From Escherichia phage vB_EcoM-ZQ1, in sequence record MW650886.1: 64,000 nt of DNA; one strand, written 5' to 3'. Positions 11,893-26,188 of the stretch are shown in pieces. The notes under the pieces are model-generated. The model was not told the DNA's origin and did not search any database. It saw nothing but the letters and a program-made list of their open reading frames with translations. The first letter of the stretch is position 1. Every line of letters begins with the position of its first letter. The position numbers and the translations under genes are program-made.

Positions 11893-12488
11893 CAACTTAT
11901 GTAATCAATGGTGGTGATCTACTGAAAGCCGCCTGTAGCTTCAATCTGATCGACATCTTTGCCCACGGTGCCAACTGTTGGTCTACCATGGGCGCGGGCA
12001 TTGCTCTGCACATCGGTAACAACTTCCCAGCCCTGCGTGAAGTCGATGCGAACGACCCTCGTGGTCCAGAGCAACGCCTGGGTGGCATGTCCTATGCATT
12101 TGACCACAGCACTGGTGTCTGGGGCGCGAACCTCTACACTCAGTTTTATCCAGGTCCGAACGCTCGCATGCCGTCTGTCATCAGTTCTGTTCAGATGTTG
12201 TTTGAGCAGGTTCACGAAATTGTGGAAGCAACTAAAGACGAAACCGTCTATGTCGGCCTGCCTGCTATCGGTTGTGGTATTGGTGGTCTGAACCTCTACA
12301 GTGTAGTGCGCCATATCAATCGAATCTCTGAAAGCGTGTATGAAGAGACCCGCCGTCGTGTCGTCCCAGTCTTCTATATCAGGGAAGGAGACGGATTCGA
12401 TGATGATCTGATGGAACTTTCTCATCTGGACACAGAAGGTATCATGATTGTCGAAGATGAGCAAGAAATCATCGACGAGGAGGCGTAA
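11889..12488 (+). CDS. macro-domain protein (ADP-ribose binding/hydrolase family)
   Basis: ATGA overlap at 11889; motifs DIFAHGANCWSTMGAGIALHI (N-A-A-N ... G-G-G-V-like) and GLPAIGCGIGGL match the macro-domain signature. Confidence 0.65.
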   Translation: MTTYVINGGDLLKAACSFNLIDIFAHGANCWSTMGAGIALHIGNNFPALREVDANDPRGPEQRLGGMSYAFDHSTGVWGANLYTQFYPGPNARMPSVISSVQMLFEQVHEIVEATKDETVYVGLPAIGCGIGGLNLYSVVRHINRISESVYEETRRRVVPVFYIREGDGFDDDLMELSHLDTEGIMIVEDEQEIIDEEA

Positions 12489-13121
12489 ATGTACAAGTCT
12501 AATTTCCTTGCAGTTGCCGACAGCGAAACCCTGGGGCGCTGGGATGATGCAGTCATGCTGTCTTGGGCACACACCATCGCCGACCTGACCAAGCGTTATA
12601 CTCTTCAGCAGCTGGTTGAGGAGCGCACGACGTTCATTAAGCTGAATGTCAAAGAGCAGATCGAACTCGGTCGCGTGAAGGACCAGGGGACGGTAGAATG
12701 GTGGTTGGGGACGGGTAAACGTAACCCGTGTGATGCGGCTCGCGCCGTCAGTCTGTACCCCAAGGAAGATGACATCTCTATCTTCCAGCTGGCCGATGAA
12801 ATCCGCAAGGGTTGTCATCGTCTTGGGGTAGACCCGCGCTCGGTTGACTGGTGTGATCGCAACCTGTTTGATCTGCGCAAGGCTCAGCACATCATTGAGG
12901 TGACATGTAAGCAGGACTCCAACGAGCCTTGGGATTACCACCACACCTTCGACATCGTGAGCTGGCTGAAGGGTGTTGGGCAGCAGGATCGGTATGCTGG
13001 CATCAAGGCATGGGAACTGGAAGGTATGGTCTATCATGACCCTCGTTATGACGCTGCGCTTGACTGGCTGCGTATTCAGAAGACCATGGAAGATCTGATG
13101 GGTCTGGAGGTTGTGGGATGA
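12489..13121 (+). CDS. DEDDh-type 3'-5' exonuclease (DnaQ-like; T4 DexA-like candidate)
   Basis: N-terminal AVADSET (D-x-E Exo I motif) and C-terminal YHDPRYDAALD (H-x4-D Exo III motif). Confidence 0.6.
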   Translation: MYKSNFLAVADSETLGRWDDAVMLSWAHTIADLTKRYTLQQLVEERTTFIKLNVKEQIELGRVKDQGTVEWWLGTGKRNPCDAARAVSLYPKEDDISIFQLADEIRKGCHRLGVDPRSVDWCDRNLFDLRKAQHIIEVTCKQDSNEPWDYHHTFDIVSWLKGVGQQDRYAGIKAWELEGMVYHDPRYDAALDWLRIQKTMEDLMGLEVVG

Positions 13122-13826: not shown

Positions 13827-14386
13827 TGGCAGGAATTGTGAAGTATCTGGGAGACACCCACCTTGGGCACAAGAAGATCTTCAAGCCCCGTGGGTTCGAT
13901 ACCCAAGAGGCGCATGATGCTGCAGTTATCGACAGTATCTTTCAGGGGCTGAAGTCTCGAGACGTCCTTGAACTTGCAGGCGACATCTGCTTCATCGGGG
14001 CTGAGGGGTTCATTCGCCTGATGCGCGAGGGTGCCAAGCGGAATATTGATGAGTTCAAGCGCCGCCCGGTTCCCGATGACTGGCGACCGAACTTTATCAT
14101 CAGGGTGGCGCAAGGCAACCATGACAGATTCAAGATGTTGATGCAGCTGTATCAAGAGGGATGGATTAGCTCCTTTGGTGCGATGTATGAGCGTGATACC
14201 CCGGTTGGTTGTGTGCTGACCACTCACGTTCCTTATCAATTAGGCCGCTGGGCTTATAATATCCATGGTCATCTTCACAGTAAAATGCGTGAAGAACGTG
14301 AATACCTGAACTGCAGCTGGGAACAATTCAAGCGCCCTGTGACATTGGCCGAGCTGCTCTACACCAATCTGGGGATTGAAATATGA
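13826..14386 (+). CDS. calcineurin-like metallophosphoesterase
   Basis: TAATG overlap start at 13826; motifs YLGDTHLGH (GDxHG), AGDICFIG (GDxx), QGNHD (GNHD/E), HGHLH. Confidence 0.65.
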
Positions 14387-14700
14387 AAATTTATTTTCCT
14401 GGCCAAAAGGTGCCTTCTGAAGTGCAGAAGGTCACAATCACAGGCTACCGGAAAGGGGATCCATATCTGCGCTTCTCCTCTCCATGTATCGTGAAGCAAA
14501 CTAAAACGGGTTATTATATCAGGCCGATTGTGTTGATGGGCTGTGTAATGACATTCAGAGCTTCCTGTGAACACGTTCTTATACAAGGAAGTCCGAACAT
14601 CGAAGGTGGAGAAACCCACATGAACTGCAAGCCGATTATCCCGACATGGTTGATTATTGGTGTGCTTTCCGTTTTAGCTCTGAAAGGAGTATTGTCATGA
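14383..14700 (+). CDS. hypothetical protein with C-terminal TM helix
   Basis: ATGA overlap; C-terminal [17 protein letters not shown] is hydrophobic. Confidence 0.4.
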
Positions 14701-15035
14701 AAAAGCCGCGTATTACAGGACACCAACTCTTGGTTCTCTACGGGATGGAGAACTTTGAGAAAGGTCATTGCCGTTATGGTGAATGGTACTTGCATCCCAA
14801 ATCCTGGACCAATGACAAGGGCAACACCGTCTGGACGTTCCAGGTATGCCCGAACACTGGTGGTTTCACCTCCGTCAAAGGCGACCCATGGGACACCCGC
14901 ACAGGGGCTTCCCTGCTAGCCAAGGGGTTGATCGAACCAGCTGGCTCAATGGTTCATGACGGTTCTTACGTGAACTGGCCGAACACTGAGGTGACGTTCT
15001 ATCGCCTGACTGAACTCGGTAAATCTTATCTCTGA
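14697..15035 (+). CDS. hypothetical protein
   Basis: ATGA overlap at 14697 (MKKPRITG...). Confidence 0.4.
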   Translation: MKKPRITGHQLLVLYGMENFEKGHCRYGEWYLHPKSWTNDKGNTVWTFQVCPNTGGFTSVKGDPWDTRTGASLLAKGLIEPAGSMVHDGSYVNWPNTEVTFYRLTELGKSYL

Positions 15036-15060
15036 ATAAAGATTCAGCGGTTATTGAAGA

Positions 15061-15091
15061 AGGGGGAGTATATACTTCCCCTTAGTTTATT
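15061..15091 (+). terminator. rho-independent terminator (9-bp stem, ATAT loop, then TAGTTTATT)
   Basis: hairpin read directly about 25 nt after the stop at 15035. Confidence 0.55.
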
Positions 15092-15105
15092 AAGAGGAAC
15101 CGGAA

Positions 15106-15420
15106 ATGACCCCATTAAAAGAAATGTATGAGCGTCTGGCTGAACTACAGGCGAAGGAAAAGCGCTTCTCAGAAGAAGAGTCTGAAATCGCCGAGCTGAA
15201 CAACCTGATTGCCACTCGTGAGAAGTACCTGCATCGCTACATTAATCACCCGCCGCGCATGGTAGACCGCGTCAGCACTATCATGGACCTGGATGAAGTT
15301 ACTCCTGGCAAAGAAATCATTGTCAGGGAAGTCCACCAGATGGTCGCCATGGGTCAGATCTTTGGTCGTGCAGACCAAGACGACATGATCTTCCTCCTTG
15401 AAAAGAAACTGGTGATGTGA
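15106..15420 (+). CDS. hypothetical protein
   Basis: 104-aa ORF with AAGAGG RBS. Confidence 0.45.
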   Translation: MTPLKEMYERLAELQAKEKRFSEEESEIAELNNLIATREKYLHRYINHPPRMVDRVSTIMDLDEVTPGKEIIVREVHQMVAMGQIFGRADQDDMIFLLEKKLVM

Positions 15421-15926
15421 TGGCTATCAAACCCCGTATGTTATTTGCGCATATGCGCTCGGCTCATGCATACGCTCTGTCCAGCTATGCCCAGCGCCTG
15501 AAGGTCGGCTGTGTTATCGTTGACCCGCGTGTTGACCAGCCCCTGTCTATCGGTTGGAACGGGACTGCTCCTGGCGCTCCTAATGTCTGTGAGAAGGAAG
15601 TAGACGGTCAACTGGTATCGGTGGGTGTTATCCACGCCGAGGAGAATGCTCTGAGCAAACTCCCCCAGCACACTGAAGACTGTTGTGGCCTGGTGATGTT
15701 TGTCACTCATAGTCCATGCCCAGAGTGCACCCGTCGTATTATCGGCAGTGGCAAGATCGCTAAAGTATTCTATGACCGACCATATCGTATCATAGACGGC
15801 ATTATTGAAATGCTGGCTGCTGGGATTGAAGTGTATCGCATGGTCGATCAGATTGTTGTAGTCCAGCATTCTGTGAAGAACGGCGAACTGGTATCCACCC
15901 CTGTTTTAGTGAACCCTGACAAATAA
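15420..15926 (+). CDS. dCMP deaminase (cytidine/deoxycytidylate deaminase zinc-binding family)
   Basis: HAEENAL (H-A-E) and SPCPEC (P-C-x-x-C) zinc-binding motifs; start overlaps the upstream stop (GTG at 15417, ATG at 15420). Confidence 0.8.
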   Translation: MAIKPRMLFAHMRSAHAYALSSYAQRLKVGCVIVDPRVDQPLSIGWNGTAPGAPNVCEKEVDGQLVSVGVIHAEENALSKLPQHTEDCCGLVMFVTHSPCPECTRRIIGSGKIAKVFYDRPYRIIDGIIEMLAAGIEVYRMVDQIVVVQHSVKNGELVSTPVLVNPDK

Positions 15927-15936
15927 GGAATTTATC

Positions 15937-16344
15937 ATGCGTTATGTAGATCGTATGCTCGGCAAAGACGAGCACGTTATTGCCTTCACCCGCCCGACTT
16001 GGTGGAGCGGTTTTTGGATTTACGTTCTGGTTATTTTAACGTTTATCCCAACATTTGGATTCAGCTTGTTATTTCTGATACCAACAATTTTAAATGTATT
16101 GACAACTGAATTCGCTGTGACTAACAAGCGTGTCATCGTCAAACGTGGTTTCATCCGTCGTGATGCTGATGAGTTGCGCATCGGTAAGGTGGAGACAGTG
16201 AAGGTTGATCAGTCCATCACAGGCCGCATCTTGGGCTTCTCAACAATCAGCGTGATCGGTACGGGCGGCACCCGCCTGCTGGCCAAGGGTTGTGCTGGTG
16301 GTAATGCGTTCCGTCAGAAGATCTACGATCACCTAGAAGACTGA
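15937..16344 (+). CDS. membrane protein with bacterial PH-like domain (YdbT/DUF304-like architecture)
   Basis: two TM helices (WWSGFWIYVLVILTFIP...LLFLIPTILNVL) followed by a soluble domain; family assignment is from pattern recall only. Confidence 0.4.
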   Translation: MRYVDRMLGKDEHVIAFTRPTWWSGFWIYVLVILTFIPTFGFSLLFLIPTILNVLTTEFAVTNKRVIVKRGFIRRDADELRIGKVETVKVDQSITGRILGFSTISVIGTGGTRLLAKGCAGGNAFRQKIYDHLED

Positions 16345-16346
16345 TT

Positions 16347-16559
16347 ATGATCACTTCAGGTTACACCATCGATCTTTATTGTGAATGCTCAGATTGCAAG
16401 GCATGCAGTTGGGCTTGGGAAGAGCATCACACCAAGCGCGGGTTCAAACAATACACTGGTGAGACTTGGGGTGATTGTGTCAGGCAGGCTCGGGCTGATG
16501 GTTGGCAAATCGGGCGCGACAGACATACCTGTTACGCCCCTGGTCACAAGAGAAGTTAA
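16347..16559 (+). CDS. small cysteine-rich protein (possible zinc-binding)
   Basis: 70 aa with CECSDCKAC ... CY cysteines. Confidence 0.4.
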   Translation: MITSGYTIDLYCECSDCKACSWAWEEHHTKRGFKQYTGETWGDCVRQARADGWQIGRDRHTCYAPGHKRS

Positions 16560-17170
16560 GGTAAGAGCAGTCCATCATCCCGCTCCGTTGGGGCGGGTTT
16601 AATCTCCTTCCGCATCTGTTCCTTCAGCACCCTGACACGCTCAGCATGGCGACGGTCTTGCATCTCCATATCCCGTTTCTTTTTCGACTTCAGCTCAAAC
16701 TGTTTACGAACATCCGGATCTTCACCCGGAACAAGATGCTCTTCGGTCCATATAATGAACTTCCAGTTCTTCTTGGCACACAGTTCGCGGGTGGCCTCCC
16801 ACTTGGCAGAGTTGACCAACCAGGTTCGCATCGCATTGTTGAATGTCGACTCCTTCATGTTCGGAGTCTTCTTCGGCTGCTTGATCTGGTCTTTGGGCTT
16901 GATCTCAATGAGGGTGACCTGTAGTTCCTCTTGCCCTTCACGGCGCGTCCAGACCTTGAGGTCCATGAAGTAACGATGGGTGCGCCCGTCGACTGGGGAA
17001 ATGTAAGGGATTACGGTCTCCTCACTAGACCACTTTACTATCGCGGAGTTCATATCACAGAACTTGAAAGCCACCAACTCCAGCGAAGAGCGGAAGATGA
17101 TGTTATTCACATTCCCCTGATACTTCTTGGGATTAACTGGGGTGTACTTCCCCTGAAGATAGTTGCTCAT
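16556..17170 (-). CDS. PD-(D/E)xK nuclease-like protein; possibly a gp4-like head completion nuclease
   Basis: lone reverse-strand gene; motif YFMDLKVW ... LIEIKPK (D ... E-x-K); sits divergent to a structural gene block. Confidence 0.4.
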   Translation of the reverse strand: MSNYLQGKYTPVNPKKYQGNVNNIIFRSSLELVAFKFCDMNSAIVKWSSEETVIPYISPVDGRTHRYFMDLKVWTRREGQEELQVTLIEIKPKDQIKQPKKTPNMKESTFNNAMRTWLVNSAKWEATRELCAKKNWKFIIWTEEHLVPGEDPDVRKQFELKSKKKRDMEMQDRRHAERVRVLKEQMRKEIKPAPTERDDGLLLP

Positions 17171-17220
17171 AATCTAGTCCTAAATAGCTATAACACTCTA
17201 TCTATTTAAGGGCTGAGACC

Positions 17221-18189
17221 ATGGCCGACTTCAAGAAGACAATCGATAAGATCAAGGTTCTGAACACGAAGGGATTGTCCCAGGCTCAGAAGCAATTGTC
17301 TTATCCCCTAGACGTTACTGGGGGTAAGACCTTGGGACACTATGTCCTATTCAACATCAACCGTATCTCCGGTTCATCTTATGGCAACACGGCTACTCAG
17401 ACTATCGAGAACCCAATACAGAACCCTCTGGGGAATACTCCTGTGGTCTATGGGTCCAAGTCTGGTTCCATCACCAAATATGCATGGGCGCGTCACGTTC
17501 GTTCAAACGAGTCTATCGTACTTTGTATGCCTGAGTCCATTACAACCAACTATGGTGTTGGCTGGAACGGTAGCGAGCTGGGGCTGGCTGGTATGGGGGC
17601 ACAGTTCCTTTCCCGCGCCGCCCAAGACATGACTCAGTTTAAACTGGGTGATGCGCTCAACGTCGGGAAGGAGATGGGGCGATTCGCTGCCACCAAGGCT
17701 ATCCAATCTGCGTCGGAGGCTATTCCATTCCTGCCGAGCATTAACGCTCATGACACCCTTGAGTTGTTCACAGGCACCATGACCAACCCATATGTGGAGA
17801 TGATCTTCCAGGGTGTTCGCAACCGTGAGATTCCATTTACATTCAAATTCACGCCGCGATCTCAGAAGGAAGCCAAGATGGTCCGTGAGATCATCCGCAT
17901 GTTCAAGATGCACATGTACCCAGAGTACAAGTACAACAAGAATTCCAGCGCGTTTTACTTGCATCCTTCAACATTCGACATTACGTTCATGGTCAATGGG
18001 GAGCGTAACCAGTGGCTGCACCGCATCTCCACTTGTGTGCTTTCCAACATGTTCGTCAACGAGACGCCGGACAGTTCATACGCGGTTCACAAAGATGATG
18101 GTATCGTGTCCACGCAGGTTGACATGACCTTCATCGAACTGGAGCCTCTGCATAAAGGGCGCTTTGAAACCGAAGGCGATAGCTTCTAA
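17221..18189 (+). CDS. virion structural protein (baseplate/tail-tube-associated, gp48/gp54-like candidate)
   Basis: 322 aa; first gene of a co-directional block ending in a tape-measure-like protein; assignment by position and weak resemblance. Confidence 0.35.
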   Translation: MADFKKTIDKIKVLNTKGLSQAQKQLSYPLDVTGGKTLGHYVLFNINRISGSSYGNTATQTIENPIQNPLGNTPVVYGSKSGSITKYAWARHVRSNESIVLCMPESITTNYGVGWNGSELGLAGMGAQFLSRAAQDMTQFKLGDALNVGKEMGRFAATKAIQSASEAIPFLPSINAHDTLELFTGTMTNPYVEMIFQGVRNREIPFTFKFTPRSQKEAKMVREIIRMFKMHMYPEYKYNKNSSAFYLHPSTFDITFMVNGERNQWLHRISTCVLSNMFVNETPDSSYAVHKDDGIVSTQVDMTFIELEPLHKGRFETEGDSF

Positions 18190-18200
18190 GAGAGGATGCC

Positions 18201-18755
18201 ATGAAATATTTTGAGAAGTTTCCACTTGTTTGGCATCAATTGCAAGATGTCCAAGAGAATGATCAGGTGCTGTTACAGAACTTAACGCGCCGGGTGATGA
18301 TCTTACAGAAAATTAAGGACATCGAAGGGCTTCTCCTGCCGTATACGATCCAAGATGGGGAAACCCCAAGGTCTTTCGCAGAACGCGTTTACGGATCCTT
18401 CGAGTTGTTTTGGATACCTTGTCTGATAAACGGCATCATGGACATCAATAAGGACTGGCCGAAACCGGAACGCCGTATTGTTGAAGAACTGACTGCAGAT
18501 TATGGCATCGATGGTATGTGGGATACAGCCTATTATGTCGACCAGTTCAACAATGTGACCGACGCCCGTGCTATCAAATTTGCATATAACCTAGACCTGG
18601 ATGAGCCGTCCATAATTGCTAACTATGGTCTGACGGCAGTTTCATACCATGATGATGCAATCAGTAAGAATGAAGCCAAACGGAACATCCAAGTACTCGA
18701 CCCAGATTATGTGTCTTCGTTTGTCAATCAGCTGGAGCAGGAGTTGGCGAAATGA
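18201..18755 (+). CDS. hypothetical structural-module protein
   Basis: 184 aa, tightly coupled within the structural block. Confidence 0.35.
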   Translation: MKYFEKFPLVWHQLQDVQENDQVLLQNLTRRVMILQKIKDIEGLLLPYTIQDGETPRSFAERVYGSFELFWIPCLINGIMDINKDWPKPERRIVEELTADYGIDGMWDTAYYVDQFNNVTDARAIKFAYNLDLDEPSIIANYGLTAVSYHDDAISKNEAKRNIQVLDPDYVSSFVNQLEQELAK

Positions 18756-20140
18756 TCGAAAACAGAGAGACCCAAGACGGTATTGTAACACCGTCAACAA
18801 CATTTGACCTGAAGTATATGGCGATACTCCCTCATACACCCCAGGGCGGATCACCAACGCCATATGACCTGACGGCGTTGTTTGAGGAGTTCAACGTCTT
18901 CCAGGATCTGGGTCTTGAAGGGAAGTCATCTCCATCACTTACAGCCAATGTCTTGATAAAAGAGGGGTGGGACATTCTTGACACAATGCCTATCTTGGGT
19001 GGTGAAGAAGTTGTGGTGTCATTCAAGAGTCCGGCGGCCTCGGAATACACCACTCTCTCCCTGCGCGTAGCGCGTGTTGGGCGCGTAGCTGATGAGTCCA
19101 ACAGCTCGTCCAAGAAAGCATTCTGGTTGCACATGGTGACCACCGATGCCTATAAGGACAGCATGATCCGATGCTCCCTCGGTCTTGACGGTTCGTATTC
19201 TGACATGGCGAAGACAATCTTCAATCAGCTGGAGTCGCGCACCAAGTTCGAAGACATCGACCCGTCATATGGAATTCAAGAGCGGTTCGCCACCCCGCTC
19301 TGGCCTGTGCTGCGATCTATTGATTATATGGCGAGCCGTTCTTATGACGAATTGTTCATGCCATTCGTGTTCTATGAAGACTTCAATGGCTATCACTTCA
19401 AGAGCCTGACGACGTTGTTCAACCAGGGTAGCCAGTCATTGACAGCAGAAGAGAAGCAGGAACTAGCTCAGCAGAACAAGTTGTTCCGTGATCCTCAGGA
19501 CGCGCCGCTCATGCAGGATAACAACTTCAACTCTGAGCGCTTTATGCGCACGATCATCAAGGCAGAGAAGAAGCTGGCGCGTGACCAGTTCATGGCAAAC
19601 TACCGCGATGTCCTGGCAGTGAACGAGCGCGTCTACGACTTTGAGACCAAGACAGTCACCCCAACACAGCGCATCTATACTGAGTGGTTTGCAGAGACGG
19701 CTCACCTTGATCCGTTCCCGATGTTCTCAGATGAATTCAATCGTCAGAACGTCCGTTACATTGAAGCCCAGCCGGATGGAGCGGAGCAGATTGATTATGC
19801 TCGTCGTGTTATCAACTTCAGTCTTGCCAGCACTGTGATGCGCGTGTTGCTCGTTGGTGATAACCGCCTGAACGTCGGTCAGGTGTTCTACGTCGAAGAC
19901 CAGTCCAACCGTCCTAAGAAGAACGAAAACCTGGCAGAGTTAAGTAAGCTATCGACAGGCCACTATATCGTGACCAAAGTGCGTCACAAGATTTCCCGCC
20001 TGACCAAAGATTATCAGTGCATCGCTGAGATTGCCAAGGACAGTTTGCTGGAGCAGGTGCTTCCACCTCAGACCAATCAGACAACTGCTTCCACCACTAC
20101 TCCTCAGGCGATTGAGAAAGGCCAAGCACAGAAGGTTTAA
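18752..20140 (+). CDS. hypothetical structural protein (baseplate hub candidate)
   Basis: 462 aa, ATGA-coupled, immediately upstream of the tape-measure-like gene. Confidence 0.35.
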   Translation: MIENRETQDGIVTPSTTFDLKYMAILPHTPQGGSPTPYDLTALFEEFNVFQDLGLEGKSSPSLTANVLIKEGWDILDTMPILGGEEVVVSFKSPAASEYTTLSLRVARVGRVADESNSSSKKAFWLHMVTTDAYKDSMIRCSLGLDGSYSDMAKTIFNQLESRTKFEDIDPSYGIQERFATPLWPVLRSIDYMASRSYDELFMPFVFYEDFNGYHFKSLTTLFNQGSQSLTAEEKQELAQQNKLFRDPQDAPLMQDNNFNSERFMRTIIKAEKKLARDQFMANYRDVLAVNERVYDFETKTVTPTQRIYTEWFAETAHLDPFPMFSDEFNRQNVRYIEAQPDGAEQIDYARRVINFSLASTVMRVLLVGDNRLNVGQVFYVEDQSNRPKKNENLAELSKLSTGHYIVTKVRHKISRLTKDYQCIAEIAKDSLLEQVLPPQTNQTTASTTTPQAIEKGQAQKV

Positions 20141-20151
20141 CGAGGTGACCC

Positions 20152-22098
20152 ATGGCACAGGAAGCAACGAACAATGATGTTGTCAAAGTTCTAGACAAGA
20201 TCAAGGCGGAGATGATGCAGCGCAAACAACTCCGCGCTCAGAATGAAACCAACAAACAGCTTGACCGGATGAACAAGAATCTGGCCAAGCTGGAATCTGC
20301 CACTAAACAGGGCACCAAGGCCGAGTCCAAGCCATTTGAAATCCGTATCCCGACAGTCAATGAGATCGTCATGGGATTCGCTCGCATGTCTCCGATCTTC
20401 ACCCGCGACTTCAGCGTATGGATGAAGGATACTGTCGATGTGGGTAACGAAGGCAATCGGGAACTGGAGAATATTGCAGGCAAGATTGACCGCCTCGGTG
20501 AGATCACCCGCATGCCAACAGATGACACGTCCCTGGAGTATCTTAACCTGATCTCAGACCAGCTGAAGTCTGCCAATGATGACACCCTCAAGCGCATGGA
20601 CGAGCAGAGTGTGTCTCTGGTCCGCGTGGGATCATTCTTGAACATGATCGACGGAGTGATGATCGAGGTTCGTGACGATGTTGCTGAACTGAAAAAGAAC
20701 TCCGATGACACCCTTACTCGATTGTCTAGCATTGAAAACAAGATTGGGCGCACGGGCGGTCATATCGTTGGAGTGCTGACACGCATCTTTGATGAAGACC
20801 AGAAGTGGCGTGAGAAGGACGAGATGCGCCGTGGGGAAACCGACAAAGAAACGGGTGGTCATCCTCAGGCGGGTTCTGTTATACCCAAAGACGATGACCA
20901 GAAAGACGATTCCTCCGGTATCGGGGCTGCTGTGGCGGCCATGCTTGGCCTGAATGCACTGAAGGGCTTCTTGCTCAAGCCGTTCAAGATCATCGGTGGT
21001 GTTGTCGGGACTTTCCTCGGCATGTTCTCCAAGCTGGGAGAAGGTATCACCAAACTTCTGGGTCCATTTGGGAAGGTGTTTAAGTTCCTGAAAGTCGGCC
21101 CACTGGCTCTCCTGTCTATGATCTGGGACTTCGGTAAAGGCTTCATTGATGCGAAGGAGATCCTGGGTAAAGGTGCTGTCACGATAGTTGACCGAGTACG
21201 GGCGGGGATATCAGAACTGGTTGGTGGATTTGGTGATCTATTTGACTGGGTGTCCAAGATCTTTGGCTTCGATACCAAGGCGGGAGAAACCCTGCGCAAA
21301 TACACCCTCATGATCACTGAGGCTCCCGCTCGTTGGCTGAATGGTATTATCGACTGGATTAGCAACGACTTGTTTGCAGGGATCGGGAGAGACACGTCTC
21401 TTACGGATATCCCTGGCAAGTTAGCAGACAACCTACAGTCCGAGTTGATGAAGCTGGTAGACTGGATCACAGGGGGTATCAGTAGTGTGATCGACGAGGG
21501 CATGGGTGTGGCCAACAAGGTCATTGACGATATCAAGAAGGGATTTGCCGAAAATGTGAAGAAACCTTTCTTCAACATGCTGAACACAATCACCAATGCG
21601 ATGTTCGATATCGTTGACAAGTTCGTCAGCATCATCCCTGACGCTCTGGGTGGACAGGCTGCGAAGCAGAAGATGGATGAGGCTCGCCAGTCTATGCTGA
21701 TTGACACTGATGAGAATCCATCTCCTAATGTGACAGAGACCCAGCAGCCACAGACGCCAGCACAACCGAACATCGATCCACAAACGCTGACTCCAATACC
21801 TTCTGGTGCGTCTTCGGATGACAAGAATATGACTAATGACCGCACCTCTCAGCTGAAAGCTGCGTATGGTTCTATCGGGGGTGGTACTCTGGGCGGGGCC
21901 ATGCCATCACAAGGGAGGGCGCTGTCTAATATTGAGCAAGTACAAGGCGGCTATTCACCGCCTCCAGCCAGCGTCGTGATGCCAGTACAGCAGAATGTGG
22001 ATGCTTCTAAGAGGATCAACACGACCAATAACTTCAACAGCTCATATCTTGAGCCTGAGAACAAAACAGATAATTCCCGCATCCTGTGGGAATGGTAA
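20152..22098 (+). CDS. tail tape-measure / baseplate hub protein (T4 gp29-like candidate)
   Basis: 648 aa; coiled-coil-like N-terminus, Gly-rich hydrophobic central segment (GIGAAVAAMLGLNALKGFLLKPFKIIGGVVGTFLGMF), Ser/Thr/Pro-rich C-terminus. Confidence 0.45.
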   Translation: MAQEATNNDVVKVLDKIKAEMMQRKQLRAQNETNKQLDRMNKNLAKLESATKQGTKAESKPFEIRIPTVNEIVMGFARMSPIFTRDFSVWMKDTVDVGNEGNRELENIAGKIDRLGEITRMPTDDTSLEYLNLISDQLKSANDDTLKRMDEQSVSLVRVGSFLNMIDGVMIEVRDDVAELKKNSDDTLTRLSSIENKIGRTGGHIVGVLTRIFDEDQKWREKDEMRRGETDKETGGHPQAGSVIPKDDDQKDDSSGIGAAVAAMLGLNALKGFLLKPFKIIGGVVGTFLGMFSKLGEGITKLLGPFGKVFKFLKVGPLALLSMIWDFGKGFIDAKEILGKGAVTIVDRVRAGISELVGGFGDLFDWVSKIFGFDTKAGETLRKYTLMITEAPARWLNGIIDWISNDLFAGIGRDTSLTDIPGKLADNLQSELMKLVDWITGGISSVIDEGMGVANKVIDDIKKGFAENVKKPFFNMLNTITNAMFDIVDKFVSIIPDALGGQAAKQKMDEARQSMLIDTDENPSPNVTETQQPQTPAQPNIDPQTLTPIPSGASSDDKNMTNDRTSQLKAAYGSIGGGTLGGAMPSQGRALSNIEQVQGGYSPPPASVVMPVQQNVDASKRINTTNNFNSSYLEPENKTDNSRILWEW

Positions 22099-24935: not shown

Positions 24936-25004
24936 CTTCAATAGATTATTGGTGGGTGTGGGATCTTGCTTAGCCGATAATGACCGCAAATGTTTCTGTA
25001 TCCA

Positions 25005-25565
25005 TCATGAACCCTCCGCCCAGACAAAGCCGTATTTGTTCAGTAGATCCACGGTTTCACCACGAGCGCGAGCCACGATAGATTCTACTGATTCTTCCAC
25101 CTCGAGTGGTGGGCAACCAGCCTTTTCGTACGTGTTAAGCAAGAGAGCAAGTTCTTTTACGAACTCTTCTTGTTCCTCTCCTCCAAAGAACCACATCCGC
25201 AGATCGTCGCGTTCCCCGTGCTTGTTCAGAGAAGCCATATTCACGTACACGTAATCGTTTTTCTGAACAACGTCATTTATCTCCGGCCAATGCAACCCAG
25301 TCATCGCATAATTGAAGAATTCCGAAGGGGTGACTTCATCCGACAAATAATACAAACGGAAGTCACCGCTGGGGCCATGTTTGCAAGTTCTATCCAGCAT
25401 TATTTTGTGGATGTCAACACGGTCTCGCTTCAAGACTTCCCGTTTCTTCAGTCGACCTCTCAGCCAGGCACTGCCAATACACAAAAGAACGAAAGCAGTA
25501 GCACCAGTGAGTATGTTGAAAGAATCAATAATGTTCATAAGATCCCCGAAGTGATAAAGGGGCAT
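25005..25565 (-). CDS. membrane-anchored protein (N-terminal TM helix, soluble C-terminal domain)
   Basis: GGAGGGG RBS upstream of the ATG at 25565; N-terminal NILTGATAFVLLCIGSAWL is hydrophobic. Confidence 0.45.
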   Translation of the reverse strand: MPLYHFGDLMNIIDSFNILTGATAFVLLCIGSAWLRGRLKKREVLKRDRVDIHKIMLDRTCKHGPSGDFRLYYLSDEVTPSEFFNYAMTGLHWPEINDVVQKNDYVYVNMASLNKHGERDDLRMWFFGGEEQEEFVKELALLLNTYEKAGCPPLEVEESVESIVARARGETVDLLNKYGFVWAEGS

Positions 25566-25579
25566 AAGCCCCTCCGATG

Positions 25580-26188
25580 TTATTTGCTCAGGCTGGCGAG
25601 GTAGTTGTCGGCTTCGATAGACGACGGGCTGTTGGCGGAGTAGCTCGAATCAGCGATTTCGGTTTCGCGCAGGATGGCATCGATATCGATGGTGGTCATA
25701 CCAGCGGCATAATCGATATCTTCAGGGAGCACCAGACCCAGGTCGTTCGTCTCTTTCTGAACACGAACCAGCTCGAGATTGGACTTGACTTCGTCCAGTT
25801 TGTCACCCAGCTGGATGATCGCACCGTTCAGTTTGTCGCTGCTTGCTTCGATGTCCTTCACCTGAGCCAACAGGGCTTCACCGATACGGCGGCGATGCAG
25901 AATAATCAGGGCGTCGGCGCGGGTTGGTGTGACACCACGAGCGATGGCGTCCTTCAGAACTTCTTCGCGCTTGGCGGCTTCACTCAGGTTCTGTTCTGCG
26001 GTCTTCTTCAGTTTGACGCCGTTGCGGACGTTGGTGACACGGGCTTCCTCCAGGCGACGGATTTCGTCAGACAGCTTGCGAGCAGCCAGGTTCAGGCGCT
26101 TTTCGGTGTCGGTCAGTTTATCCAGACCTGCGGTGACGTTGGCTTCAACAGTGGTGAAGATGCGTTTCAGTAAGTTTTTCAGTGACAT
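25580..26188 (-). CDS. PspA/IM30-family (phage-shock protein A / Vipp1-like) protein
   Basis: 202 aa; N-terminal amphipathic helix then long heptad-like coiled coil (LKNLLKRIFTTVEANVTAGLDKLTDTEKRL...) resembling PspA; GAGGA RBS. Confidence 0.55.
   Translation of the reverse strand: MSLKNLLKRIFTTVEANVTAGLDKLTDTEKRLNLAARKLSDEIRRLEEARVTNVRNGVKLKKTAEQNLSEAAKREEVLKDAIARGVTPTRADALIILHRRRIGEALLAQVKDIEASSDKLNGAIIQLGDKLDEVKSNLELVRVQKETNDLGLVLPEDIDYAAGMTTIDIDAILRETEIADSSYSANSPSSIEADNYLASLSK

What the first reader, a model, noticed from the sequence alone, without database searches (positions are those of the whole stretch)
16556..17170. Lone reverse-oriented PD-(D/E)xK gene at the edge of a structural block
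This is the only minus-strand gene between two plus-strand blocks. The D ... E-x-K motif indicates a restriction-endonuclease-fold nuclease. It may be the head-completion nuclease equivalent (T4 gp4-like) or an unrelated nuclease such as a homing or anti-defence enzyme.
Basis: partly seen in the sequence, partly recalled or inferred. Interest (0 to 1): 0.35.

Follow-up and report, generated by a model that had tools for sequence, protein, structure and literature searches.

The report
T4 gp4-type head completion nuclease gene
The lone reverse-strand gene is the phage's copy of the well-known T4 gp4 head-completion nuclease, already annotated as such in closely related phages, so the finding is correct but ordinary.

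Summary
The ORF at 16556-17170 (minus strand, 204 aa) is real. The window comes from an Agtrevirus-type phage (Ackermannviridae), about 98% identical in DNA to Escherichia phages PC3, A221 and LHE287.

- **Already annotated.** The protein is 100% identical to the annotated "head completion protein gp4" of LHE287 and of Shigella phage Ag3, named as such in 2011.
- **Homologous to T4 gp4.** BLASTP gives E=6e-31 and 38% identity over almost all of T4 gp4. Both proteins hit Pfam PF08722 (TnsA-like endonuclease) and PHROG 218.
- **Conserved orientation.** gp4 is transcribed divergently from baseplate genes gp48 and gp53 across a 50-bp gap, as T4 gene 4 is from gene 53. The gap holds two opposed T4-late-promoter-like TAAATA motifs.
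- **Rival readings.** Homing and anti-defence roles are not supported. The gene is single-copy in every hit record listed, sits at the same place in the relatives examined, and has no defence-family match.
- **Mildly new feature.** A 58-residue C-terminal helical, charged tail ends in a conserved LLP. T4 lacks it, and it is under purifying selection.

Verdict: already known, low interest.

The parts
16556..17170 (-). Complete CDS (204 aa plus stop) of the gp4-type head completion nuclease
   Evidence: ORF list and sequence. 100% identical over residues 1-200 to LHE287 'head completion protein gp4' and 204/204 identical to Ag3 orf00036. BLASTP to T4 gp4 gives E=6e-31.
16733..17170 (-). Residues 1-146: PD-(D/E)xK (TnsA-like) nuclease domain. 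Catalytic codons are E50 (17021-17023), D70 (16961-16963), E89 (16904-16906) and K91 (16898-16900).
16559..16732 (-). Residues 147-204: lineage-specific C-terminal extension. It has a charged helix (about residues 152-189) and a flexible tip ending in DDGLLLP.
   Evidence: T4 gp4 (150 aa) lacks the extension. It is 57-61 aa long and ends in LLP in 27 of 28 close enterobacterial-type homologues. Vibrio-phage relatives have a shorter basic tail. AF2 predicts helix 152-189 at pLDDT about 80 and a tip below 50. Against Ag3, dN=0 and dS=0.40 over the 58 codons.
17171..17220 (.). 50-bp divergent intergenic region with two opposed TAAATA (T4-late-promoter-like) motifs. The plus-strand motif at 17181-17186 faces gp48. 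The minus-strand motif at 17203-17208 faces gp4.
   Evidence: The T4 gene 4/53 gap (47 bp) and the window's gp2/gp54 gap (53 bp) have the same layout. TAAATA lies 20-40 nt upstream of a possible start in 11 of 17 cases, against 67 of 305 for permuted hexamers; Fisher p=3e-4. Promoter function is inferred, not shown.
16579..16597 (+). G+C-rich hairpin followed by TTTAATCT, terminator-like for the convergent plus-strand operon. It lies inside the 3' coding end of gp4 (codons K-P-A-P-T-E-R).
   Evidence: Terminator scan. Annotated as a rho-independent terminator at the same place in Ag3. Fold and conservation.
17221..18755 (+). Divergent partners: gp48-like baseplate tail tube cap (17221-18189) and gp53-like baseplate wedge subunit (18201-18755)
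   Evidence: PHROG 230 at 7e-114 and PHROG 232 at 1.2e-58. Pfam T4_tail_cap and Phage_gp53.

Best explanation
The gene encodes the orthologue of bacteriophage T4 gp4, the head completion nuclease, in an Agtrevirus-type (Ackermannviridae) phage.

**What is shown here.**
- It is a single-domain PD-(D/E)xK (TnsA-like) nuclease with an intact E/D/ExK metal-binding active site.
- It carries a lineage-specific charged C-terminal helix.

**What is inferred here.** It is transcribed late, from a T4-type late promoter. That promoter sits opposite the promoter of the baseplate genes gp48 and gp53.

**What is taken from T4 genetics and biochemistry.** After headful packaging and release of terminase, the nuclease acts on the packaged DNA at the portal vertex. 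This allows neck proteins and the preassembled tail to join. Without its nuclease activity, filled heads do not mature into infectious particles.

The basic C-terminal tail most likely adds non-specific DNA affinity or a docking contact. This last point is inference.
For: **Homology**
- 100% identity to the annotated gp4 of LHE287 and Ag3.
- BLASTP to T4 gp4 gives E=6e-31 and 38% identity, covering T4 residues 4-142 of 150.
- PF08722 scores above its gathering cut-off for both this protein (64.7 bits) and T4 gp4 (76.8 bits).
- PHROG 218 'head closure' matches at 8e-58.

**Active site and fold**
- D70 and E89 are invariant, and E50 and K91 are present in 109 of 110 homologues.

**Gene context**
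- Divergent pairing with gp53-type baseplate genes occurs in T4, Ag3, Kuttervirus sal1 and Vibrio phage K474. In cyanophage S-SM2 it is linked to gp48 and gp53.
- It is single copy in each of the 40 hit records listed, and gene 4 is listed among T4 core morphogenesis genes (PMC2993671).

**Expression**
- Opposed TAAATA motifs sit 33 and 35 nt from the two start codons. The T4 4/53 gap and the window's gp2/gp54 gap have the same layout. The positional enrichment has p=3e-4.
- Ag3, whose gp4 is identical, encodes gp55, gp33 and gp45 homologues (PMC3121705). LHE287 also annotates them.

**Function in T4**
- gp4 was predicted to be a PD-(D/E)xK nuclease in 2005 (PMC1189080).
[quoted passage not shown] 2020, Virology 543:7, as cited in PMC7824862, and PMC11895373).
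Against: - No experiment exists for this phage's protein. Nuclease activity, late timing and the head-joining role are all transferred from T4.
- The precise DNA substrate of gp4 is unknown even in T4.
- The gp4-side promoter motif (CTTAAATA) has two mismatches to the T4 consensus TATAAATA. In Kuttervirus and Vibrio relatives it is degenerate (TAATTA).
- The 58-aa tail has no counterpart in T4, so some functional difference is possible.
- No relative has a solved structure detectable by sequence.
- I could not read the primary paper on gp4 nuclease activity.
Confidence: 0.9

Rival explanations
1. It is a free-standing homing endonuclease or other selfish nuclease that happens to sit beside the baseplate genes.
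For: - The gene stands alone in reverse orientation.
- Homing endonucleases do insert in this neighbourhood in relatives. Examples are F-LimII next to the head completion gene of LIMEstone1 and features of Salmonella phage S8 and Dickeya phages.
Against: - Those homing genes are separate GIY-YIG or Hef-like ORFs lying beside gp4. They are not gp4 itself.
- gp4 is single-copy in every hit record listed and sits at the same position in Ag3, Kuttervirus sal1, Vibrio phage K474 and T4.
- It is under strong purifying selection: dN=0 with dS of 0.16-0.40 against Ag3.
- Gene 4 is listed as a core morphogenesis gene.
- The window's 50-bp gap has no room for an inserted element.
Confidence: 0.02
2. It is a nuclease with another role, not head completion. 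Candidates are anti-defence, host-DNA degradation, or resolving branched DNA during packaging as T4 endonuclease VII does.
For: - Kosinski et al. noted T7 endonuclease I, a junction resolvase, as a good structural template for gp4.
- The true substrate of gp4 is unknown.
- gp4 was not detected in virions of LIMEstone1, and it is not listed for Sajous1 although its four neighbours are. It may therefore act catalytically and leave.
Against: - There is no PADLOC match.
- The gene is flanked by late-type motifs and late baseplate genes, not by early genes.
- Orthology to T4 gp4 is strong, and the T4 mutant phenotype is a block in head-tail joining.
- A role in processing branched or protruding DNA at the portal would count as a mechanism of head completion. 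It would not be an alternative to it.
Confidence: 0.05
3. It is a non-catalytic structural 'head closure' or connector protein that merely retains a nuclease-like fold.
For: PHROG and RefSeq label the family 'head closure' in the category 'connector'.
Against: - The full catalytic set E50/D70/E89/K91 is invariant or nearly so across 110 homologues. This argues for retained chemistry.
- Nuclease activity was reported as required in T4 (cited).
- The protein was not found by virion mass spectrometry in LIMEstone1.
Confidence: 0.03

Closest known systems
Bacteriophage T4 gp4 (head completion nuclease; genes 4, 50 and 65 are the same gene; NP_049755)
   Same: - 38% identity, E=6e-31, over the whole T4 protein.
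- Same Pfam family, PF08722.
- Same conserved E/D/ExK residues.
- Same divergent pairing with a gp53 baseplate operon, across a gap of about 50 bp carrying two opposed late-promoter motifs.
   Different: - The window protein is 204 aa against 150 aa. It has a 58-aa charged helical C-terminal tail ending in LLP that T4 lacks.
- In T4, gene 4 is co-transcribed with genes 2 and 3. Here gp4 stands alone, and gp2 lies about 21 kb away, paired with a gp54-like gene.
- The immediate divergent neighbour is gp48, not gp53.
Gp4 head completion protein of Shigella phage phiSboM-AG3 (orf00036, YP_003358517) and other Ackermannviridae (Vi01, LIMEstone1, LHE287)
   Same: - Identical amino-acid sequence in Ag3 (204/204) and 100% over residues 1-200 in LHE287.
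- 72-79% identity in Kuttervirus-type proteins.
- Identical gene order, in the sequence listed: dCMP deaminase, membrane protein, small ORF, gp4 (the only reversed gene), gp48, gp53, tail protein, tape-measure-like protein.
   Different: Nothing of substance. There are synonymous DNA differences only against Ag3 (dS 0.16-0.40).
Tn7 TnsA (PDB 1F1Z, 1T0F), N-terminal catalytic domain
   Same: - Same Pfam family.
- Restriction-endonuclease-like fold with an acidic/acidic/x-K active site.
   Different: - About 16% identity.
- There is no TnsA C-terminal domain, and no TnsB/C/D partners or transposon ends nearby.
- The context is phage morphogenesis, not transposition.
T7 endonuclease I (gp3; PDB 1FZR), junction-resolving enzyme
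   Same: Kosinski et al. 2005 reported it as a confident PSI-BLAST and threading template for the gp4 family. It belongs to the PD-(D/E)xK superfamily.

Membership tests
T4 gp4 head completion nuclease family | Significant full-length sequence similarity to T4 gp4 | tested here: met
   BLASTP gives E=6e-31 and 38% identity, query residues 6-146 against T4 residues 4-142 of 150. tblastn finds annotated gp4 or head completion genes in 2544 phage records.
T4 gp4 head completion nuclease family | TnsA-like PD-(D/E)xK domain (Pfam PF08722) above the gathering threshold | tested here: met
   64.7 bits against a cut-off of 26.5. T4 gp4 itself scores 76.8 bits. PHROG 218 matches at 8e-58.
T4 gp4 head completion nuclease family | Conserved catalytic residues (acidic, D, E-x-K) | tested here: met
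   E50 109/110, D70 110/110, E89 110/110, K91 109/110. All align with the T4 gp4 SET...D...EIK residues.
T4 gp4 head completion nuclease family | Restriction-endonuclease-like three-dimensional fold | tested here: met
   [not shown]
T4 gp4 head completion nuclease family | Genomic linkage to baseplate gene 53 or late morphogenesis genes; single copy | tested here: met
   T4 has 4 divergent from 53. The window has gp4 divergent from gp48-gp53. The same holds in Ag3, sal1 and K474, and the genes are linked in S-SM2. There is one place per record in every row listed.
T4 gp4 head completion nuclease family | Late expression from a gp55-type late promoter | tested here: inconclusive
   A CTTAAATA motif lies 33 nt upstream of the start. 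It matches 6 of 8 positions of TATAAATA. The layout is shared with T4 4/53 and the window's gp2/gp54 gap, and the positional enrichment has p=3e-4. No transcript data are available.
T4 gp4 head completion nuclease family | Mg2+-dependent DNase activity required for head-tail joining | not testable with these tools
   Known only for T4-like gp4 from the literature (Benler et al. 2020, as cited). Biochemistry and genetics are needed for this phage.
Homing endonuclease (free-standing) | Sporadic distribution among otherwise collinear relatives | tested here: not met
   Present once, at the same position, in the Ackermannviridae and T4-like genomes examined. Gene 4 is listed as a core gene.
Tn7-type TnsA transposase subunit | TnsA C-terminal domain and adjacent TnsB/TnsC genes with transposon ends | tested here: not met
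   Only the N-terminal nuclease domain matches. The neighbours are phage baseplate and nucleotide-metabolism genes.
Anti-phage defence nuclease | Match to a known defence-system protein family | tested here: not met
   No PADLOC family matches at E<=0.01.

The most novel reading that the evidence does not exclude
The 58-residue C-terminal extension is a dedicated docking or DNA-clamping module. It is found in this form only in Ackermannviridae-type gp4 proteins among the homologues examined. It consists of a charged helix and a flexible tip ending in an LLP motif, and it is under purifying selection.

Under this reading, the module tethers the nuclease to the portal or neck, or to another phage protein. 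That would give this lineage a mechanistically different way of delivering gp4 to the packaged DNA end. The DNA encoding the extension also doubles as the transcription terminator of the convergent early/middle operon.
Probability: 0.2. Interest if true: 0.3.

Novelty: already known. Interest (0 to 1): 0.1.

Why it matters
It matters little beyond correct annotation. The gene is a core morphogenesis gene of T4-like phages, and relatives of this phage have carried the same label since 2011.

Two points have modest value.
- The biochemical substrate of gp4 is still unknown, even in T4. The Ackermannviridae version, with its extra conserved tail, could be a useful second model.
- The compact bidirectional late-promoter layout is shared by T4 4/53 and by the window's gp4/gp48 and gp2/gp54 pairs. 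It is a neat conserved regulatory module.

Tried and rejected
- **PDB sequence searches.** Searches with the protein and with a 110-sequence profile found no solved relative. The fold was therefore tested with an AF2 model instead.
- **Library searches with no result.** NCBIfam has no model for the protein. PADLOC gave no hit. Rfam gave no RNA family in 15500-18500.
- **Sigma-70 promoter scan.** It found nothing around the gene.
- **TAAATAG search.** The 7-mer is not enriched overall (4 found, 3.5 expected). The second pair, at 41994/42036, turned out to be the two arms of a perfect 14-bp hairpin, not a divergent promoter. I therefore switched to a positional test of TAAATA.
- **Clamp-docking idea for the C-terminal DDGLLLP.** I asked whether the motif resembles the C-termini of T4 gp33, gp55 or gp43, which dock on the sliding clamp. 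The C-termini of LHE287 gp33, gp55, RNase H, gp32, gp59 and others do not resemble it. There is no support, so the idea was dropped.
- **Primary paper.** Benler et al. 2020 on gp4 nuclease activity could not be retrieved. It is cited second-hand.
- **dN/dS against distant relatives.** Against Kuttervirus and Vibrio relatives, synonymous sites are saturated. Only the Ag3 comparison is informative.
- **Profile comparison of T4 gp4 with A2.** It is not independent evidence, because A2 contains T4 gp4.

Full report
**Observation**

The motif is real. D70 is encoded at 16961-16963, E89 at 16904-16906 and K91 at 16898-16900, read directly.

The strand claim also holds. The near-identical annotated genome Escherichia phage LHE287 has only plus-strand genes from the window start up to the gene. 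These include rIIA/B, topoisomerase II subunits, DexA and dCMP deaminase. gp4 follows on minus, then four plus-strand genes at 17221-22098, after which a long minus-strand replication block begins.

Two nuances apply. The downstream plus block is only four genes. It is also a small baseplate/tail island, not the main structural module. Its members are a gp48-like tail tube cap, a gp53-like wedge subunit, a tail protein and a tape-measure-like protein (the Vi01 gene order is in PMC10892097).

**Where the window comes from**

Megablast of 14000-20000 gives 98.0-98.5% identity to Escherichia phages PC3, PH4, A221, LHE287 and RPN242, and 92-95% to Salmonella phage SKML-39 and Shigella phage Ag3. 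Ag3 is classified as Ackermannviridae, Aglimvirinae, Agtrevirus.

**Identity of the gene**

- The protein is 100% identical over residues 1-200 to the LHE287 CDS annotated 'head completion protein, gp4'. It is 204/204 identical to Ag3 orf00036, 'Gp4 head completion protein'. The 2011 Ag3 genome paper already names that gene the head completion gene (PMC3121705).
- A direct BLASTP against T4 gp4 (NP_049755, taken from NC_000866) gives E=6e-31 and 38% identity. It covers residues 4-142 of the 150-residue T4 protein.
- Pfam assigns PF08722 (TnsA-like endonuclease N-terminal) at 1.1e-17 and 64.7 bits, against a cut-off of 26.5. T4 gp4 hits the same family at 2e-21.
- PHROG 218 'head closure' matches at 8e-58.
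- tblastn finds the family in 2544 phage records, once in each record listed. These include T-even phages, cyanophages, and Aeromonas, Vibrio and Klebsiella phages.
- Gene 4 is listed among the core morphogenesis genes of T4-related phages (PMC2993671).

**Fold and active site**

In an alignment of 110 homologues including T4 gp4, Y56, Y67, D70 and E89 are invariant. E50 and K91 are present in 109 of 110.

No solved structure is detectable by sequence. This matches the 2005 prediction by Kosinski, Feder and Bujnicki that gp4 is a PD-(D/E)xK nuclease resembling TnsA and T7 endonuclease I (PMC1189080).

**Function**

The function is transferred from T4 and not shown here. T4 gene 4 mutants are blocked at head completion and head-tail joining.

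Benler et al. (Virology 2020, 543:7) reported that gp4 is a non-specific DNase whose activity is needed for morphogenesis. I could not retrieve that paper. I rely on its description in PMC7824862 and PMC11895373.

Virion proteomics of LIMEstone1 did not find gp4 (PMC3296691). The Sajous1 virion list contains the four neighbouring baseplate/tail proteins but no head completion protein from that cluster (PMC10892097). This weakly suggests the enzyme acts and leaves, or is present in very low copy.

**Why the gene is 'backwards'**

The orientation is ancestral, not an anomaly.

- In T4, gene 4 (minus) is divergent from gene 53 (plus) across 47 bp.
- In the window, gp4 is divergent from gp48-gp53 across 50 bp.
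- Ag3, Kuttervirus sal1 and Vibrio phage K474 have the same arrangement.
- In cyanophage S-SM2, gp4, gp48 and gp53 are co-directional in one cluster.

The T4 gap reads CAT...TATAAATAgataataTATTTATA...ATG, that is, two opposed late promoters. The window gap reads CAT...ccTAAATAgctataacactctatcTATTTAagg...ATG.

The window's second head-completion gene is the gp2 DNA end protector at 37535-38239 (minus). It is likewise paired with a lone plus-strand gp54-like gene across 53 bp carrying TATAAATA and the opposed TTAAATA. Motif-to-start distances are 33 nt for gp4 and gp2, and 35 nt for gp48 and gp54.

Across the window, 11 of 17 TAAATA sites lie 20-40 nt upstream of a possible start. For the 14 permuted hexamers the figure is 67 of 305 (Fisher p=3e-4). 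The phage group encodes gp55, gp33 and gp45 homologues.

Late transcription of gp4 is therefore a reasonable inference, but no more than that. The gp4-side motif has two mismatches to TATAAATA, and it is degenerate (TAATTA) in Kuttervirus and Vibrio relatives.

**Rival readings**

- *Homing endonuclease.* The distribution is single-copy and fixed in position in the genomes examined. Selection is purifying, with dN=0 and dS 0.16-0.40 against Ag3. The homing endonucleases reported near this gene in LIMEstone1 are separate GIY-YIG or Hef-like ORFs, and feature names in S8 and Dickeya records point the same way. No such ORF is present in the window's 50-bp gap.
- *Anti-defence or defence.* There is no PADLOC match, and the gene sits in a late-gene context.
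- *Purely structural protein.* This is unlikely given the invariant catalytic set.

**What differs from T4**

The protein carries a 58-residue C-terminal extension, residues 147-204, encoded at 16559-16732. AF2 predicts a single long helix (152-189, pLDDT about 80) followed by a disordered tip.

In the 28 close enterobacterial-type homologues, the tail is 57-61 residues long in all but one. It is strongly charged (15-19 K/R and 8-15 D/E) and ends in DDGLLLP or xSLLP. Vibrio-phage relatives have a shorter, purely basic tail of about 46 residues. Many T4-like and cyanophage proteins have short K-rich tails or none.

Against Ag3, the 58 tail codons show dS=0.40 with no amino-acid change. The tail is therefore translated and constrained. 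Its role is unknown. Non-specific DNA binding, or docking to a morphogenetic partner, is the natural guess. A check for a shared C-terminal motif with clamp-binding proteins (gp33, gp55, RNase H and others) was negative.

**The 3' end**

The gp4 stop codon overlaps the stop codon of the convergent 70-aa ORF at 16347-16559 (sequence TTAA). A G+C-rich hairpin followed by TTTAATCT sits at 16579-16597 on the plus strand, inside the gp4 tail-coding region. Ag3 annotates it as a rho-independent terminator.

The hairpin is identical in Ag3. Vibrio phage K474 has a different GC hairpin plus T-run at the analogous place, and Kuttervirus sal1 has none obvious. No minus-strand terminator was found downstream of gp4.

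**Verdict**

The gene is an already-annotated orthologue of a known, experimentally characterised family. The only mildly new aspects are the conserved C-terminal tail and the terminator embedded in it. Interest is low.

Noticed in passing
window 16347-16559 (+): A 70-aa Cys-rich ORF (PHROG 926, unknown function, E=1.9e-25). Its stop codon overlaps the gp4 stop codon (TTAA). It is annotated in Ag3 (orf00035) but left unannotated in LHE287 and Salmonella phage sal1.
   Followed up: partly
window 16579-16597 (+): A terminator-like hairpin for the convergent plus-strand operon lies inside the gp4 coding sequence. It is identical in Ag3. An unrelated hairpin plus T-run sits at the analogous place in Vibrio phage K474 (L006), and none is obvious in Kuttervirus sal1 (L005).
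   Followed up: partly
window 37535-39237: The gp2 DNA end protector (37535-38239, minus) is divergently paired with a lone plus-strand gp54-like tail tube/baseplate gene (38293-39237). The 53-bp gap carries TATAAATA and an opposed TTAAATA, with the same 33/35-nt spacing as the gp4/gp48 gap. The T4 3-2-4 cluster is thus split into two late-gene islands in this phage.
   Followed up: partly
window 24984-26187: About 1.2 kb is present in the window but absent from LHE287. It carries two minus-strand ORFs: 25005-25565 (186 aa, no Pfam hit) and 25580-26188 (202 aa, PspA/IM30 family, E=4.9e-11).
   Followed up: partly
window 41993-42037: A perfect 14-bp inverted repeat, GTAAATAGCCCATA...TATGGGCTATTTAC with a 17-nt loop, lies between two minus-strand genes. 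It accounts for the only other TAAATAG pair in the window.
   Followed up: no
window 11919-13037 (-) and 20865-21845 (-): Two long antisense ORFs (372 and 326 aa) lie opposite annotated plus-strand genes (the Tk.4/DexA region and the tape-measure-like gene). They are not annotated in relatives and are probably shadow ORFs.
   Followed up: no
relatives: Dickeya phage LIMEstone1 / RC-2014 / XF4, Salmonella phage S8 (hits H5, H67-H70): Free-standing homing endonucleases (for example the SegD-like F-LimII and the Hef-like F-LimIII) are inserted next to the head completion and baseplate genes in some relatives. The window has none at this locus.
   Followed up: partly
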